A stretch of DNA of 52,757 bases from Escherichia phage vB_EcoM_SD350, in sequence record OR911937.1, one strand, 5' to 3'. The translations under genes were made by a program, and so were the position numbers. This document shows positions 21,002 through 34,481 of this stretch, piece by piece. Position 1 is the stretch's first letter; every line of letters begins with the position of its first letter. Below the pieces are notes generated by a model that did not search any database, had not been told where the DNA came from, and worked only from the letters and a program-made list of their open reading frames with translations.

Positions 21002-22141
21002 ATGCCGTTGAATGTAAACCAGATTGTAAACGTTCAACTGAACAACACTCCAACTGGTATCAGCAAAGGTGACTTCGGTAAGCTGGCTCTTTTAACTCAG
21101 GACCCTGGCACTGCTTTTCCTGACAGCGACAACGGACACTATGTTGAAATCGGCAGCTACTCTGAAGCCGAGTCTTATTGGGGTACTGGTTCAGTTGTAC
21201 TTGGCGCGCTGAAGATTTTCTTTGCACAATCTCCGCGTCCTCGTTCAGTAGTTATCGCCTCATGGAGCAACACCTCTACTCTGGATGCGGCTATTAAAGC
21301 ATTCAACGATGTGTATCCTGACTGGTATGTTCTGCGTCCGCTTCCGCCTACTGGCGAGCTGTCTGACGATGACATCAGTTTGCTGGCGTCAACTGTTGCT
21401 GCTTACGATAAAAAACGTTGCAGCTACACTACCACTAAAGCAACTCATATTGAAAACAGCGACTCCAACCCGATTAAAGTTCTGGCTGGTAAAGGCTACA
21501 ACAATATGTGGCTTCAGTACGATAAGAACAACCAACACTATGCAGACATTTCTGCTATGGCGCGTGCTCTGTCTGTTAACTTCTCTGGTAACCGCACTAC
21601 GATTACCATGAAGTTCAAACAAGAGCCTGGTATTACACCGAACAACACTTTAACGCTCACTGAAGCTAACAAGTGTAAAGCGCTGGGTATTAACTGGTAC
21701 ACCTACTACAGCACCTTTGCTATGCTTGCAGAAGGTACTGTCCTCGGTACGTCCAAGCCGCCGCGCTTCTGGGATGAAGTACATGGTCTCGACTGGTTCT
21801 GTAATGCTGTCCAGACTTACGTCTTCAACTCAATCGCTACGTCACCCACGAAGGTGCCGCAGACGAACAAAGGTCACGAGCGCCTTACCGGTGCTGCAGC
21901 TGTTGCTTGTCAGCAGGCTGTCGACAACGGCTTGGTTGCGCCTGGTATCTGGTACGGTGATGAGTTTGGTACACTGTCTTATGGTGACCGACTCGAAACA
22001 GGTTTCTACATCTACATCCCTGACGTAGATGACCAGCCTCTGGATGAGCGTGAAGCTCGTCAGGCCGTTGTAATGCAAATCGCGATTAAGCTGGCTGGTG
22101 CAATCCACTCCAGCGACATCCTGATTAACTTCACTCGCTAA
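21002..22141 (+). CDS. tail sheath candidate (major tail protein)
   Basis: 379 aa, biased codon usage, first gene of the tail module; sheath versus other major tail protein not resolved. Confidence 0.4.
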   Translation: MPLNVNQIVNVQLNNTPTGISKGDFGKLALLTQDPGTAFPDSDNGHYVEIGSYSEAESYWGTGSVVLGALKIFFAQSPRPRSVVIASWSNTSTLDAAIKAFNDVYPDWYVLRPLPPTGELSDDDISLLASTVAAYDKKRCSYTTTKATHIENSDSNPIKVLAGKGYNNMWLQYDKNNQHYADISAMARALSVNFSGNRTTITMKFKQEPGITPNNTLTLTEANKCKALGINWYTYYSTFAMLAEGTVLGTSKPPRFWDEVHGLDWFCNAVQTYVFNSIATSPTKVPQTNKGHERLTGAAAVACQQAVDNGLVAPGIWYGDEFGTLSYGDRLETGFYIYIPDVDDQPLDEREARQAVVMQIAIKLAGAIHSSDILINFTR

Positions 22142-22152
22142 GGAGCAGATCA

Positions 22153-22584
22153 ATGATCATCGATTCTTCTGAATGCGTGTTGAGCCTGAATGGTGTTCAG
22201 CTGTCCGACTGGGCAGACGGTGCCGATGTCATTGACGTGCAATGGGTGGACCCAGCTTCCACCTATCTTGCAGGTGCAGATGGCAATGGCATTCAGATTA
22301 TGAACCCGTCCAAAGCCATTAAGCTAACTATCAAGGTTAAGCAAAATGGTCCGGATGCCAAATGGCTTAACGACCAGTACAACCTGCAGCGTAACAACAT
22401 TCGTGGATTTGTCCCGTTTGTGCTGCAAGCCAAAGACCTGCTAAACCAGGATTTGGCATGGGGTAAAAAAGGTTACTTTACCGATGGTTCCCCGTGGACT
22501 CGCGGTAACGGCCATAACCCGACTACCTTCGCTATTGTGTTCCACCAAGGTGGTATGCAGTTGACTGAAGGCTTTGACCAGTAA
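22153..22584 (+). CDS. tail tube candidate
   Basis: 143-aa ORF directly after the sheath candidate; positional. Confidence 0.4.
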   Translation: MIIDSSECVLSLNGVQLSDWADGADVIDVQWVDPASTYLAGADGNGIQIMNPSKAIKLTIKVKQNGPDAKWLNDQYNLQRNNIRGFVPFVLQAKDLLNQDLAWGKKGYFTDGSPWTRGNGHNPTTFAIVFHQGGMQLTEGFDQ

Positions 22585-22602
22585 CAATAGAGGAAAGCAC
22601 AA

Positions 22603-23031
22603 ATGACTGAGCCCAAATCATTTGACATCGACGACGTAACGTACAACATGACACTCGCAAACGCGCTGCAAGCCTGGACGGTCCTGAAAAAAGCAGGTAA
22701 GCTGTTCAAAGGCATTGGTAACGCTGACATTGTGGGTAAAGACGGCAAAGTGGACGGTAAGAAAGCAATGCTGGTCCTGTTGGACGCTGTTCTGGAGAAC
22801 GCAGGTTCTGACGAGATGACAGCTATTGAGGAGCTAATCTTCCGCAATACTGTTGTTGTAGTTGATGGCAAACCGCGTAAGCTGTCTGACTGTAAAGACC
22901 AACACTTCAACGCACATCGTAGCCATATCTTCGGTGTGCTCAAGGAGGGATTGGTATATCAGTTCGCGGATTTTTTCAAAGGGAATGGCCTGTCAGGTCT
23001 AGCGGGTCTAGCCACGCCCTTGACGAAATAA
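22603..23031 (+). CDS. tail assembly chaperone
   Basis: 142-aa ORF immediately upstream of tape measure; contains slippery heptamer T_TTT_TTC at 22971-22977. Confidence 0.55.
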   Translation: MTEPKSFDIDDVTYNMTLANALQAWTVLKKAGKLFKGIGNADIVGKDGKVDGKKAMLVLLDAVLENAGSDEMTAIEELIFRNTVVVVDGKPRKLSDCKDQHFNAHRSHIFGVLKEGLVYQFADFFKGNGLSGLAGLATPLTK

Positions 23032-23213
23032 AACGCAAGCAACAGTCAGGGACGCAAGAAACTGACTGGTTCGTTTGGCTTCCTATTCTCAAGGGTCATG
23101 TGACCCTTGCAGAATTAAAGACGTCCTACAGCTTGTGTGATTTGTGCGACCTGCATATTGCTATTCTGGACTATGCCGAGTTAGAGGAAATCCATGGCGA
23201 CCATAATCGATAG
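22603..23213 (+). CDS. tail assembly chaperone, extended isoform by programmed -1 frameshift
   Basis: -1 frame downstream of the slippery site is open for 79 codons (22977-23213) and stops just inside the tape-measure start; it has no ATG of its own. Confidence 0.5.
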
Positions 23214-24876
23214 CTTTCTGGTAACGCTTGAGAGTAAAGCCGATAGTTCTGGCTTTGACCTCTTCGACCAGCTGTCCCGCCGTTTTGTGATTACCCTCGG
23301 CGATGTGATCAATCTTGCTGAGCGTGCCGCTGGTGCGCTTGGTAAGATGTTTGCGCCTGCGTTAGAGGCTGACGTACTCGCCGCCAAGATTAAAGGCTTC
23401 GGCTACGACGTTGAGTCGACGTGGAAAACGCTGATGGATATGTCTCTGCAAATGGGTACACCATTCCAGGAGGCACTAGACGGCTTTACTAAACTTAAAT
23501 CGTATGGCGTTGACCCGTTAAACGGTTCGCTACAAATGCTCAAAACAATCACTGCTGCAACAGGCGGTGATTTGGCACGTACCATTGTTGCGTATGGCCA
23601 GGCGTCTGCGATGGGTTCATTGCAGGGCCAGGAAAAGAACCAGTTCATTAACGCCGGTGTTGACATCTGGGGCGCATTGTCCCGCTACACTGGTAAGAAG
23701 CTTGGCGAGCTTCAGGATATGATGCGGCAGAAGCAAATCACTGCCGACATACTGACTAGCGCGCTCAAACAAGAAGCCGAACGTTTAAAACCAATTGCCC
23801 ACGAAGTGTCTCAGACACTCAAAGCGCAGTTAACTAACCTGAGCACAATTTGGTATGCTGCTCGTTCTAAGATTGCCCAGACCAGAGTATGGGATGAGGT
23901 AACTAAAGGCGCGATAAGTATGGTTAAGTCACTCACAGCAGTGCTTAACGATACCACACTTACTGCGGCGTTTAAAAAGTTCGACGAAGTTGTATTCAAT
24001 ACAATTGAAAACGTAAAACGACTTATCTACGTTATCGGGGATAACTTCCCGTTAATGGTTGCGATAACCTCATACGCACTGCTGTCACTTATTCCCGTGC
24101 TGGCGGCACTTATTCCCTGGCTAGCTAAGGTCGGCAACGCCTTTGTGGGTTTAGCTACCAAAATGCTTATGAACCCGCTCACGTGGTATGCACTGGCTAT
24201 CGGCACAGTTGTTGCTGTACTCACTGACCTCGATGACGCTCTGGCAGGACGTGAGACAGTTGTTAAGTGGTCAAAAGATGTTGTAGCCGCATGGGGAATT
24301 GTCAAGCAGTATATCGTAGTTATTGCAGACTTTATTCTGTCAATATTTGACGGTCGTTTATGGAACAAACTCGGTAACTGGTGGCAAGGTTTCCTTGTTG
24401 AAGTTAAGCAAGGCATAGAGCAGATAAAGCTTTGGTTGTCTGAAGCTCTTTACCAGCTACCTGGCGGTAAGTTCCTGATGGCGTTGTTTGGTAAGCTCGA
24501 TTCTACGCTTGGCTTTGCGGGCAATAAACTAGTGGCTGGTGCTGAAGCTACTGCTAACGCTGTGTCGCCTACCACTGAGCAGGGTGGAAGCTTCTGGAGT
24601 AGGGCACTCAACTGGTCTATGCGTAACTTCAACCCTATCACAGGGGAGATGACAGCTGGCGGTCAGGCTATGCAGTCAGCCATAAATACTGCTAAGCAAA
24701 ACCAACAGCAGAACGCAACTGTTATTCACCAGGATAATAGCGTTAAAGTTGATGCTACTATTACCGGTGTACAGAACCCACAAGAAGTAGGCCGTGAAGT
24801 CAACGACCAGGTCAAACAGGCGCAGAAAGAGAATGCTACTGTAAGGGCTAACAACAAAACGGCGGTAACACAATGA
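23194..24876 (+). CDS. tail tape measure protein
   Basis: 560 aa, helix-rich with hydrophobic segments (LLSLIPVLAALIPWLAKV...), directly after the chaperone pair. Confidence 0.6.
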   Translation: MATIIDSFLVTLESKADSSGFDLFDQLSRRFVITLGDVINLAERAAGALGKMFAPALEADVLAAKIKGFGYDVESTWKTLMDMSLQMGTPFQEALDGFTKLKSYGVDPLNGSLQMLKTITAATGGDLARTIVAYGQASAMGSLQGQEKNQFINAGVDIWGALSRYTGKKLGELQDMMRQKQITADILTSALKQEAERLKPIAHEVSQTLKAQLTNLSTIWYAARSKIAQTRVWDEVTKGAISMVKSLTAVLNDTTLTAAFKKFDEVVFNTIENVKRLIYVIGDNFPLMVAITSYALLSLIPVLAALIPWLAKVGNAFVGLATKMLMNPLTWYALAIGTVVAVLTDLDDALAGRETVVKWSKDVVAAWGIVKQYIVVIADFILSIFDGRLWNKLGNWWQGFLVEVKQGIEQIKLWLSEALYQLPGGKFLMALFGKLDSTLGFAGNKLVAGAEATANAVSPTTEQGGSFWSRALNWSMRNFNPITGEMTAGGQAMQSAINTAKQNQQQNATVIHQDNSVKVDATITGVQNPQEVGREVNDQVKQAQKENATVRANNKTAVTQ

Positions 24877-33703: not shown

Positions 33704-33982
33704 TTAAGCCTGCAGGAAGCCTGGGAACATATCAGCGCGTAAAGCAGCGCCCTTCAGTAACCAGATTTGGTCTTTAGCCTGTGCAAGCGCATTGTCCTGA
33801 GCTACTTGTTTGCCGATGTCTGCATTGAACTCTGCAGGGTCAACACAACCAGAAGTACCTACACCTAACTGGAAGCCATCCAGCGTTGCCACACATACAG
33901 TTACAGTTGTATTCGGTACCTGCCAGAAATGATACTCCAGTTTATCAACAAGAGCATTAACTTCTTTAAAATCTACTTTCAT
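33704..33982 (-). CDS. small phage protein, Gp49-like family (function unknown)
   Basis: 92 aa; TVTVCVATLDGFQLGVGTSGCVDPAEFNADIGKQVAQDNALAQAKDQIW resembles a conserved small phage protein family I recall as N4 gp49/Sf6 gp66-like. Confidence 0.45.
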   Translation of the reverse strand: MKVDFKEVNALVDKLEYHFWQVPNTTVTVCVATLDGFQLGVGTSGCVDPAEFNADIGKQVAQDNALAQAKDQIWLLKGAALRADMFPGFLQA

Positions 33983-34206
33983 TATCGCTTTCCTTTCAGC
34001 TCATTATACTGCGCACATGCAGCACACAGCACTGTACCGGGTAAAAGCTGACGTCGTTTTTCTTCAATGTCTTCCCCACACTGGTAGCACGTCAGCGGGC
34101 TTACTCCGGTGTATCTTACTCGGTTCGATAGTGCTGCGTCCCGGGCAACTTGTTCAGCTTCAGAAGCCATATCAGTAATGTCCGATGTGCGCATAGTCTC
34201 AATCAT
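33982..34206 (-). CDS. DksA/TraR-type C4 zinc-finger protein
   Basis: 74 aa with CYQCGEDI...CAAC four-Cys arrangement. Confidence 0.5.
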   Translation of the reverse strand: MIETMRTSDITDMASEAEQVARDAALSNRVRYTGVSPLTCYQCGEDIEEKRRQLLPGTVLCAACAQYNELKGKR

Positions 34207-34481
34207 TATTTTCCCTCTTCTTCACAATACAGGGTTTCTAATTCGTCGCATAGCTGTTGCGTCCAGCAATCATCCTCACCACGTATCTGGAAGCACAGCA
34301 CAGGAATATCCTGTCGTAAAATATCGCTCTTGTAAATCTTTTTGGCAACAGCTTCTGGTTCTTCCTGGAATATCTTCATAAACCAGTCCAGGCCTGACGT
34401 GCAGCCTGAGGCGTCTAGTATCTCCTTCGCCCTTAACTTAAGCGTTTCATCTGCCTCATACTCTAAACCTATCTTAGACAT
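34206..34481 (-). CDS. hypothetical protein
   Basis: 91-aa ORF with AAAGG ribosome-binding site, upstream of the Zn-finger gene. Confidence 0.45.
   Translation of the reverse strand: MSKIGLEYEADETLKLRAKEILDASGCTSGLDWFMKIFQEEPEAVAKKIYKSDILRQDIPVLCFQIRGEDDCWTQQLCDELETLYCEEEGK

What the first reader, a model, noticed from the sequence alone, without database searches (positions are those of the whole stretch)
22971..23213. Programmed -1 frameshift site in the tail assembly chaperone
The canonical slippery heptamer T_TTT_TTC lies in frame at 22971-22977, 54 nt before the chaperone stop. The -1 frame from there stays open for 79 codons with no ATG of its own and ends at TAG 23211-23213, just inside the tape-measure start (23194). 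This is the conserved G/GT-type arrangement and supports the chaperone and tape-measure calls. The six-frame track misses it because it has no start codon.
Basis: seen in the sequence. Interest (0 to 1): 0.4.

Follow-up and report, generated by a model that had tools for sequence, protein, structure and literature searches.

The report
Tail chaperone programmed -1 frameshift site
This is a real but ordinary feature: a conserved "slippery" run of T's near the end of a phage tail-assembly chaperone gene lets some ribosomes slip back one base and make a longer second protein, as in phages lambda and P2; public records of this phage genus have simply not annotated it.

Summary
TTTTTTC (22971-22977) lies in X_XXY_YYZ register in the 142-aa ORF 22603-23031, a Pfam Phage_TAC_9 tail assembly chaperone. 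That ORF sits between the sheath/tube genes and the tape measure gene (23194-24876). The -1 frame is open from 22923 to TAG 23211-23213.

The window is a Rosemountvirus (BP63-like) myophage genome. I examined 58 related loci and reduced them to 25 lineages with under 90% chaperone identity. All 25 have T_TTT_TTN at the homologous codons. This holds even though TTT and GAT are minority codons elsewhere in this gene. In each, a -1 frame continues for 44-62 codons past the chaperone stop and encodes a conserved peptide (DW..x.P....L..L+..Y.L.D...H).

Downstream of the chaperone stop, substitutions fall mostly on third positions of the -1 frame. In 20 of the 25 lineages no start codon precedes the conserved motif. 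The distant homologue Aaphi23 already carries an annotated joined CDS (ORF54-54'), and P2 uses TTTTTTG in the same way.

I found no conserved downstream RNA structure. The best explanation is a lambda/P2-type -1 ribosomal frameshift giving a 203-aa GT fusion. This is a new member of a known kind, of low interest, and useful mainly as an annotation correction.

The parts
21002..22141 (+). Tail sheath gene (379 aa), upstream context
   Evidence: phrog_205 tail sheath, 2.8e-93. Pfam DUF3383, 4.5e-72. Annotated as tail sheath in BP63.
22153..22584 (+). Probable tail tube gene (143 aa), immediately upstream of the chaperone
   Evidence: phrog_280 virion structural protein, 3.6e-31. Weak, sub-threshold Pfam hits to KPP10_Orf10 and E217_Gp32. 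The S144 record calls its homologue 'putative tube protein'.
22603..23031 (+). Tail assembly chaperone ORF ('G'): 142 aa, 15.4 kDa, the product of standard decoding
   Evidence: Pfam Phage_TAC_9, 2.2e-31 (residues 8-126), and Phage_TAC_15, 5.2e-16. phrog_6419, 1e-48, and phrog_1613 tail assembly chaperone. Translation; mass.
22923..23031 (+). Overlap window in which frame 0 and the -1 frame are both open, so a -1 shift here would be productive
   Evidence: The -1 frame opens at 22923, after an upstream stop. There is only one in-register X_XXY_YYZ heptamer inside it.
22971..22977 (+). Slippery heptamer T_TTT_TTC (zero-frame codons GAT TTT TTC)
   Evidence: T_TTT_TTN is conserved at the homologous codons in all 25 representative lineages. 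Elsewhere in this gene TTT:TTC is 1:5 and GAT:GAC is 1:10; pooled over the family both are close to 1:1.
22977..23213 (+). 'T' segment: -1 frame continuation, 78 sense codons plus TAG 23211-23213. Joined to codons 1-125 of G it gives a 203-aa, 22.8-kDa GT fusion (...QFADFF|QREWPVR...).
   Evidence: Translation; fusion sequence and mass. tblastn finds the peptide conserved at 83%, 59% and 36-45% identity in other genera. Third-position substitution bias in this frame: 11/5/24, 11/0/21 and 4/1/16, p = 8e-4 to 3e-5. Invariant D30, W31, P36, L47 and L53.
23100..23213 (+). 37-codon GTG-started tail of the T frame, annotated as a separate 'hypothetical protein' in several relatives; most likely a mis-call
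   Evidence: Homologous small CDSs: BP63 gp35, KE24 CDS0018 and vB_SenM-1 gp69, and the slightly longer ZCSE2 gp14, KE25 CDS0030 and SOI901 gp59. The conserved DWFxWxPI motif lies upstream of this GTG.
23194..24876 (+). Tape measure protein gene (560 aa); its first 19 nt overlap the end of the T frame
   Evidence: Pfam TMP_3, 3.3e-20. phrog_29251 tail length tape measure protein, full length, 1309 bits. Overlap shown.

Best explanation
This is a programmed -1 ribosomal frameshift of the lambda G/GT and P2 E/E+E' type.

Most ribosomes translating the chaperone gene (22603-23031) terminate at TAA 23029-23031 and make the 142-aa chaperone G. A minority pause with tRNA-Phe in the P site on UUU and in the A site on UUC (22972-22977). 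Both tRNAs slip back one base and re-pair with UUU UUU (22971-22976). Decoding then continues at CAA (22977) in the -1 frame for 78 more codons to TAG 23211-23213. The product is a 203-aa fusion (G residues 1-125 plus a 78-residue T domain).

By analogy with lambda, G and the G part of GT coat the tape measure protein, which is encoded immediately downstream. The rare T domain recruits the tube protein so that the tail polymerises around the tape measure. Neither protein ends up in the virion.

Shown here: the site, its register, the open frame, family-wide nucleotide-level conservation of the heptamer, purifying selection on the -1 frame, and the lack of an independent start.

Inferred: the slip is ribosomal, its efficiency is a few percent, and the T domain binds the tube protein.

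No stimulatory RNA element appears to be needed, as in P2.
For: Site and frames.

Gene identities and order (sheath - tube - TAC - gap - TMP).

Conservation: the same in-register T_TTT_TTC/T/G at the homologous '..[DG]-F-[FL]' codons, with a -1 ORF ending 13-19 nt inside the tape measure gene, is present in:
- Loughboroughvirus S144
- KE25, SOI901 and vB_SE1_KM
- Proteus phage ZX7
- Aaphi23
- Pasteurella phage Pmp3.
Erwinia phage LS-2018a shows the same G-then-T, -1 frame arrangement in its six-frame translation. Its near-identical IMG/VR locus L047 has TTTTTTG in register. The arrangement is also present in 48 of 50 IMG/VR loci retrieved with degenerate peptide patterns that do not constrain codon choice. 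In ZX7 a -1 frame stop (TGA) directly abuts the heptamer, so that heptamer is the 5'-most point at which a productive shift could occur.

Nucleotide-level selection: all 25 lineages (<90% identity) have NNT TTT TTN. Elsewhere in the same genes TTT:TTC is 75:71 and GAT:GAC is 94:82; in this window's gene the ratios are 1:5 and 1:10. The wobble T is kept even where Asp is replaced by Gly (GGT).

Coding in the -1 frame: substitutions downstream of the G stop concentrate on the third position of the -1 frame, synonymous codon differences outnumber non-synonymous ones in the closer pairs, and indels come in whole codons. The T core is the best-conserved part of the fusion.

No independent start: there is no ATG, GTG or TTG in the -1 frame before the conserved DW motif in 20 of 25 lineages, including this window.

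Precedent: Aaphi23 has the joined CDS ORF54-54'. P2 E+E' is annotated with a -1 frameshift. The literature states that P2 shifts at TTTTTTG without downstream structure (PMC3091744). It also describes the lambda G/GT mechanism, the 30:1 ratio and wide conservation among long-tailed dsDNA phages (PMC5009743).
Against: There is no experimental evidence for the fusion product in this phage or genus. None of the eight Rosemountvirus/Loughboroughvirus GenBank records I inspected annotates it. No paper in the searchable library links Rosemountvirus with frameshifting.

No stimulatory element was found. Downstream folds are no more stable than shuffled sequence (z -1.2 to +0.5). The alignment fold shows zero compensatory pairs. 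The upstream SD-like AAGGAGGG is 21 nt away and is not conserved.

The T domain has no Pfam family and no significant profile similarity to lambda T or P2 E'. Its tube-binding role therefore rests on analogy only.

Sequence alone cannot separate ribosomal from transcriptional slippage on the T run.
Confidence: 0.87

Rival explanations
1. Transcriptional slippage. RNA polymerase occasionally inserts one extra U while copying the T6 run, and standard translation of those mRNAs yields the same GT protein (D-F-F-Q...).
For: What is invariant across all 25 lineages is the homopolymeric T6 run, while the seventh base varies (C, T or G). An inserted U would give exactly the same protein, so protein data cannot discriminate. 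No RNA stimulator of ribosomal shifting was found.
Against: From my own knowledge of bacterial and phage cases (not tested here), productive transcriptional slippage generally needs runs of about 8-9 or more A/T; T6 to T7 is short. The run is always in the exact X_XXY_YYZ register relative to frame 0, which matters for tRNA re-pairing but not for polymerase slippage. P2's TTTTTTG site in the equivalent gene is described as a translational -1 frameshift.
Confidence: 0.06
2. The -1 frame ORF is an independent small gene (or genes) translated from its own start, for example the GTG at 23100 as annotated in BP63 gp35. On this reading the heptamer is just the codons for a conserved Asp-Phe-Phe.
For: Gene callers have annotated 37-45 aa 'hypothetical proteins' here in several records.
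Against: The conserved DW..x.P motif and the third-position substitution bias begin upstream of any start-type codon. In 20 of 25 lineages no ATG, GTG or TTG precedes the motif. The position of the called start is not conserved between records. Synonymous codon choice at the heptamer is fixed against the local codon bias, which amino-acid conservation alone does not explain. The upstream edge of conservation runs back to the heptamer: (R/K)-(E)-W is conserved right after the junction.
Confidence: 0.03
3. Chance or artefact. Either the open -1 frame and heptamer are coincidental, or a homopolymer sequencing error has split a single chaperone ORF.
For: In-register heptamers are not rare (28 in about 16,000 codons). 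Homopolymer runs are error-prone; one IMG/VR locus (L022) does show an indel nearby.
Against: The identical frame relationship and T6 run appear in 57 of the 58 related loci examined, which are independent assemblies from many genera and platforms. There is strong evidence of selection on both frames. A single fused ORF would remove the separate G product, whereas a stop codon closes frame 0 after the heptamer in all 57 loci that carry it.
Confidence: 0.02

Closest known systems
Phage P2 E / E+E' (-1 frameshift at TTTTTTG in the FETUD tail operon)
   Same: Both are contractile-tailed phages with the gene order sheath - tube - chaperone - tape measure. [quoted passage not shown] In both, the -1 product ends a few nucleotides inside the tape measure gene: 8 nt in P2 and 19 nt here. 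Some members of this family (ZX7, the LS-2018a-like loci, L045-L060) use exactly TTTTTTG.
   Different: The chaperone family differs: Phage_TAC_9/TAC_15 here, with no detectable relationship to P2 E. hhalign of the T-domain profile against P2 E' is not significant (probability 1%), although a W-x-P...(S/T)-L-x-E-L pattern looks similar by eye. G is 142 aa against 91 aa, and the extension is 78 aa against 57 aa.
Phage lambda G / GT (-1 frameshift at G_GGA_AAG)
   Same: The functional architecture is the same: a chaperone ORF between the major tail gene and the tape measure gene; a -1 extension without its own start that fills the apparent gap and overlaps the tape measure start; two products sharing an N terminus.
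   Different: Lambda is a siphovirus and uses a different heptamer. Its T extension is 144 aa. There is no significant sequence similarity in the T domain (hhalign probability 0.3%). Lambda's efficiency (G:GT about 30:1) and protein partners are measured; here they are inferred.
Aggregatibacter/Haemophilus phage Aaphi23 ORF54 / ORF54-54' (annotated joined CDS)
   Same: This is a true homologue. The chaperone is 44% identical and the T peptide about 41% identical over the core. The heptamer sits at the same codons (..ADFF) and the -1 ORF ends 13 nt inside the tape measure gene. The GenBank record already annotates the frameshift product.
   Different: The heptamer is TTTTTTT rather than TTTTTTC. 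Aaphi23 is a temperate phage of Pasteurellaceae. As far as I could find, its annotation is also computational; the original paper was not retrievable.

Membership tests
G/GT-type programmed frameshift in tail assembly chaperone genes (Xu, Hendrix & Duda 2004 class) | Two overlapping ORFs located between the major tail (tube) gene and the tape measure gene | tested here: met
   Gene order: sheath 21002-22141, tube 22153-22584, G 22603-23031, -1 ORF to 23213, TMP 23194-24876.
G/GT-type programmed frameshift in tail assembly chaperone genes (Xu, Hendrix & Duda 2004 class) | The upstream ORF is a tail assembly chaperone | tested here: met
   Pfam Phage_TAC_9, 109 bits against a cut-off of 25; Phage_TAC_15, 59.8 bits against a cut-off of 22.
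G/GT-type programmed frameshift in tail assembly chaperone genes (Xu, Hendrix & Duda 2004 class) | A slippery X_XXY_YYZ sequence in the correct register inside the overlap of the two frames | tested here: met
   T_TTT_TTC at 22971-22977 is the only in-register heptamer in 22923-23031.
G/GT-type programmed frameshift in tail assembly chaperone genes (Xu, Hendrix & Duda 2004 class) | The downstream ORF lacks its own initiation signal and is conserved as protein | tested here: met
   No ATG in the frame, and no start-type codon before the conserved DW motif in 20 of 25 lineages. Third-position substitution bias in the -1 frame. Invariant D, W, P, L, L.
G/GT-type programmed frameshift in tail assembly chaperone genes (Xu, Hendrix & Duda 2004 class) | The arrangement and shift site are conserved in related phages | tested here: met
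   57 of the 58 related loci examined, reduced to 25 lineages at <90% identity, have T_TTT_TTN at the homologous codons.
G/GT-type programmed frameshift in tail assembly chaperone genes (Xu, Hendrix & Duda 2004 class) | A fusion protein is made at a low, fixed ratio to the short product; both are required for tail assembly and absent from virions | not testable with these tools
   Needs proteomics, reporter assays and genetics. No published data were found for this genus.
G/GT-type programmed frameshift in tail assembly chaperone genes (Xu, Hendrix & Duda 2004 class) | The shift is ribosomal (tRNA re-pairing), not transcriptional | not testable with these tools
   The fixed register favours a ribosomal shift. 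cDNA sequencing is needed to settle it.
Pfam Phage_TAC_9 (PF10876) chaperone family | Score above the Pfam gathering threshold over most of the model | tested here: met
   109.2 bits against a cut-off of 25; residues 8-126 on model positions 2-127 of 144.
Lambda T / P2 E' extension domains (sequence homology of the T domain) | Detectable sequence or profile similarity of the -1 encoded domain | tested here: not met
   No Pfam hit at E <= 10. hhalign probability 0.3% against lambda T and 1.1% against P2 E'. The templates were single sequences, so this test has low power.
Stimulated -1 PRF (dnaX/IS-type, with a downstream hairpin or pseudoknot and an upstream SD-like element) | A conserved, stable downstream structure 5-9 nt from the heptamer, or a conserved SD-like element about 10-14 nt upstream | tested here: not met
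   Fold z-scores range from -1.3 to +0.5. None of the 13 predicted pairs shows a compensatory change. The AAGGAGGG is 21 nt upstream and not conserved.

The most novel reading that the evidence does not exclude
The most novel reading my evidence leaves open is that the shift has a second, regulatory role.

In most lineages the GT reading frame terminates 13-19 nt inside the tape measure ORF (8 nt in P2). Ribosomes that have shifted are therefore delivered right onto the tape measure start. The other ribosomes terminate 163 nt upstream.

The frameshift could thus also couple tape measure translation to GT synthesis through termination-reinitiation, setting the GT:TMP stoichiometry.

Separately, the T6 run might act through transcriptional rather than ribosomal slippage.

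In addition, the DW..x.P...L..L+..Y.L.D...H T domain is an unmodelled domain family (no Pfam entry) specific to TAC_9-type myophage chaperones.
Probability: 0.1. Interest if true: 0.4.

Novelty: new member of a known kind. Interest (0 to 1): 0.2.

Why it matters
The value is mainly in annotation.

Megablast found 56 GenBank records with this region. All eight that I inspected lack the GT product. Six of those eight carry a spurious 37-45 aa 'hypothetical protein' in its place, and the chaperone is usually left unnamed. Several of these phages are being developed as Salmonella and E. coli biocontrol agents.

Recognising the frameshift confirms the chaperone and tape measure calls, removes a phantom gene, and adds one essential tail-assembly protein.

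It also documents that the whole Phage_TAC_9 chaperone family, from Enterobacteriaceae to Pasteurellaceae phages and prophages, uses one fixed T6 slippery site with no detectable RNA stimulator. This is a clean natural data set for heptamer-only -1 frameshifting. It does not change any concept.

Tried and rejected
1. Downstream stimulatory RNA structure. Single-sequence folds of this window and six relatives and an alignment fold of six sequences gave no stability beyond shuffled sequence and no covariation. The strong nucleotide conservation of 22981-23014 is better explained by dual coding.

2. Upstream SD-like stimulator (AAGGAGGG, 22942-22949). The spacing is wrong (21 nt) and it is not conserved.

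3. +1 frame alternative. The +1 frame is open for only 14 codons around the G stop.

4. Independent initiation of T. Rejected on start-codon positions.

5. Homology of the T domain to lambda T or P2 E'. There is no Pfam hit and hhalign is not significant. A by-eye resemblance (W.P...SL.EL; D.L.DMH) remains unproven.

6. Solved structure for the chaperone. Sequence search of the PDB found nothing meaningful.

7. Literature. No paper links Rosemountvirus with frameshifting. Papers on S1/S144 list only the short chaperone. The Aaphi23 genome paper (PMC490939) is not held.

8. Phage-encoded tRNA that might modulate slippage. None is present in the window.

9. Genome-wide heptamer screen as a chance control. 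My greedy gene set wrongly preferred the antisense ORF 22473-22943 over the chaperone, so those numbers are approximate.

10. I did not run the large protein-database searches or structure prediction, because they could not change the verdict.

Full report
**Observation.** The sequence reads ...CAG TTC GCG GAT TTT TTC AAA GGG... in the frame of ORF 22603-23031. TTTTTTC occupies 22971-22977, and its register relative to that ORF is T|TTT|TTC, the X_XXY_YYZ arrangement needed for tandem tRNA slippage. The ORF stops at TAA 23029-23031, which is 51 nt after the heptamer, or 54 nt to the end of the stop. Reading from 22977 in the -1 frame gives 78 sense codons and TAG at 23211-23213. The frame contains no ATG, only GTG 23100 and TTG 23133 and 23142. 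The -1 frame is open only from 22923, so the productive shift window is 22923-23031, and TTTTTTC is the only in-register heptamer inside it. The +1 frame is closed after 14 codons.

**What the genes are.** The 142-aa ORF is a tail assembly chaperone: Pfam Phage_TAC_9 at 2.2e-31, Phage_TAC_15 at 5.2e-16, and phrog_1613 'tail assembly chaperone'. Upstream lie a tail sheath gene (phrog_205, 2.8e-93) and a small virion structural protein that the S144 record calls the tube protein. Downstream, ORF 23194-24876 is a tape measure protein (TMP_3, 3.3e-20; phrog_29251 full length, 1309 bits), followed by baseplate genes (Dit_like, Pam3_gp18, E217_GP41). The window is a Rosemountvirus (BP63-like) myophage genome. 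The region is 98-99% identical to Salmonella and Escherichia phages PA13076, LPSEYT, 8-19, BP63, UPF_BP2 and others.

**Is it more than chance?**
- *Within the window.* In-register heptamers occur about once per 570 codons, and only 1.2% of in-frame positions are followed by 78 or more open -1 codons (the gene set is approximate). The one other heptamer in that set followed by a long -1 ORF is simply an ordinary gene boundary with its own ATG (33982-34206 minus strand).
- *T peptide conserved.* tblastn with the -1 peptide finds it at 83% identity in Loughboroughvirus, and at 59% in KE25, SOI901 and vB_SE1_KM. It is found at 36-45% identity in Proteus, Pasteurella, Aggregatibacter and Erwinia phages.
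- *Same arrangement in relatives.* Seven annotated relatives have an in-register T_TTT_TTC, TTTTTTT or TTTTTTG at the homologous codons (..[DG]-F-[FL]). In each, the -1 ORF runs on to 13-19 nt inside the tape measure gene. Erwinia phage LS-2018a shows the same frame arrangement, and its near-identical locus L047 has TTTTTTG. A scan of IMG/VR with degenerate peptide patterns returned 50 loci, of which 48 show the same arrangement. The exceptions are L022, with an indel next to the site, and L061, a partial match.
- *Codon choice is fixed.* Reduced to 25 lineages below 90% chaperone identity, all 25 have NNT TTT TTN. Elsewhere in the same genes TTT:TTC is 75:71 and GAT:GAC is 94:82; in this window's gene the ratios are 1:5 and 1:10. 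The wobble T before the run is kept even where Asp is replaced by Gly (GGT). So the nucleotides, not just the amino acids, are under selection.
- *The -1 frame is coding.* Downstream of the chaperone stop, where frame 0 is non-coding, substitutions fall mainly on the third position of the -1 frame. The counts are 11/5/24 for window vs S144, 11/0/21 for KE25 vs SE1_KM, and 4/1/16 for SOI901 vs SE1_KM (chi-square p = 8e-4 to 3e-5). Synonymous differences outnumber non-synonymous ones in the closer pairs, and length differences come in whole codons.
- *The T core is the best-conserved part of the fusion.* Its motif is DW..x.P....L..L(R/K)..Y.L.D...H, with D, W, P, L and L invariant in 19 diverse sequences.
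- *No independent start.* In 20 of 25 lineages, including this one, no ATG, GTG or TTG exists in the -1 frame before that motif, so it cannot be translated on its own.
- *The site is pinned in ZX7.* In Proteus phage ZX7 a -1 frame TGA directly precedes the heptamer, so that heptamer is the 5'-most point at which a productive shift could occur.

**Mechanism.** The best explanation is a -1 ribosomal frameshift. With tRNA-Phe on UUU (P site) and on UUC (A site), both slip back to UUU UUU and decoding resumes at CAA 22977. The result is a 203-aa, 22.8-kDa fusion (...EGLVYQFADFF|QREWPVR...) alongside the 142-aa, 15.4-kDa chaperone.

I looked for stimulators and found none:
- Downstream folds are no more stable than shuffled controls in this phage or six relatives.
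- The alignment fold of six sequences has no compensatory pair.
- The near-invariance of 22981-23014 is what a dual-coding overlap predicts.
- An SD-like AAGGAGGG lies 21 nt upstream, but it is too far away and not conserved.
- The phage encodes no tRNA.

Heptamer-only shifting matches P2, whose E/E+E' shift occurs at TTTTTTG with no hairpin (PMC3091744; P2 record). It also fits the low level of shifting that lambda needs (G:GT about 30:1; PMC5009743).

The functional model comes from lambda, not from this phage. G and the G part of GT bind the tape measure, the T domain recruits the tube subunit, and both proteins leave the finished tail.

**Rivals.**
- *Transcriptional slippage on the T6 run.* It would give the same protein and cannot be excluded from sequence. 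However, the run is short for that mechanism (my own knowledge), and its invariant register relative to frame 0 is needed only for tRNA re-pairing (about 0.06).
- *An independent small gene,* as annotated in BP63 gp35 and its counterparts. This is contradicted by the position of the conserved motif upstream of any start and by the fixed codon choice at the heptamer (about 0.03).
- *Chance or a homopolymer sequencing error.* This is excluded by the same arrangement in 57 of the 58 related loci examined (about 0.02).

**Comparison with what is known.**
- The class is the conserved tail-chaperone frameshift of long-tailed dsDNA phages (Xu et al. 2004, as cited).
- All sequence-level defining features were tested and met. 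The product, its ratio and its requirement cannot be tested with these tools.
- The nearest true homologue with the frameshift already annotated is Aaphi23 ORF54-54' (joined CDS; 44% chaperone identity).
- P2 E/E+E' is the closest well-studied analogue: a myovirus with a T6G heptamer, no structure, and an extension ending inside the tape measure gene.
- The T domain has no Pfam model and no significant profile similarity to lambda T or P2 E'. I therefore claim functional analogy with those domains, not membership.

**Novelty and verdict.** None of the eight Rosemountvirus/Loughboroughvirus records I opened annotates the fusion, and six of them call a 37-45 aa phantom ORF instead (SOI901, which has no genus assignment, does the same). 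I found no paper mentioning the frameshift for these genera. It is therefore an unannotated new member of a thoroughly known kind. Interest is low (0.2); the practical value is in correcting annotations.

Noticed in passing
window 23100-23213 (+); L001 2448-2561; L002 2448-2561; L062 724-837; L063 706-840; L004 897-1034; L005 900-1028: Several GenBank records annotate a 37-45 aa 'hypothetical protein' that is just the 3' end of the T reading frame. Examples are BP63 gp35, KE24 CDS0018, vB_SenM-1 gp69, ZCSE2 gp14, KE25 CDS0030 and SOI901 gp59. These are probably phantom genes created by missing the frameshift.
   Followed up: yes
window 22473-22943 (-): An antisense ORF of 156 aa (TTG start) overlaps the tube and chaperone genes and is longer than the chaperone ORF itself. 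The PK3 record annotates a 270-aa minus-strand hypothetical protein in the same place (L010 30-839). It is probably spurious, since the plus strand has strong family hits.
   Followed up: partly
window 33982-34215 (-): An in-register GGGAAAA heptamer lies one codon before the stop of the minus-strand gene 34206-34481 and is followed by 75 open -1 codons. This is simply the next gene (33982-34206) with its own ATG overlapping the upstream stop. It served as a negative control for the heptamer screen.
   Followed up: yes
window 22981-23014 (+): A 34-nt stretch just after the heptamer (GGGAATGGCCTGTCAGG..T.GCGGGTCT.GCCA) is nearly invariant at nucleotide level between clades whose chaperones are only about 60% identical. 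It can form a weak hairpin (UGGCC...GGCCA) starting 8 nt after the heptamer. There is no covariation and no excess stability, so dual coding is the simpler explanation.
   Followed up: partly
window 22942-22949 (+): A perfect Shine-Dalgarno-like AAGGAGGG lies inside the chaperone ORF (codons K-E-G), 21 nt upstream of the heptamer. It is not conserved in S144, KE25, SOI901, SE1_KM or L016.
   Followed up: partly
window 23194-23213 (+); relatives; P2 L065 851-858: The stop of the T frame falls 13-19 nt inside the tape measure ORF in most lineages (8 nt in P2). Frameshifted ribosomes therefore terminate right at the tape measure start. Possible translational coupling was not tested.
   Followed up: no
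L022 (IMGVR_UViG_2843849862_000001), about 1560-1581: In this one relative, an indel in the G-run just after the heptamer puts the T domain in the +1 frame and truncates the chaperone (..ADFFIGGADC*). This is probably a homopolymer assembly error or a defective prophage.
   Followed up: no
record PP583539.1: A record named 'Listeria phage 220426122051' (host Listeria monocytogenes) is 98.6% identical over this region to these Salmonella/Escherichia Rosemountviruses. The host label looks doubtful.
   Followed up: no
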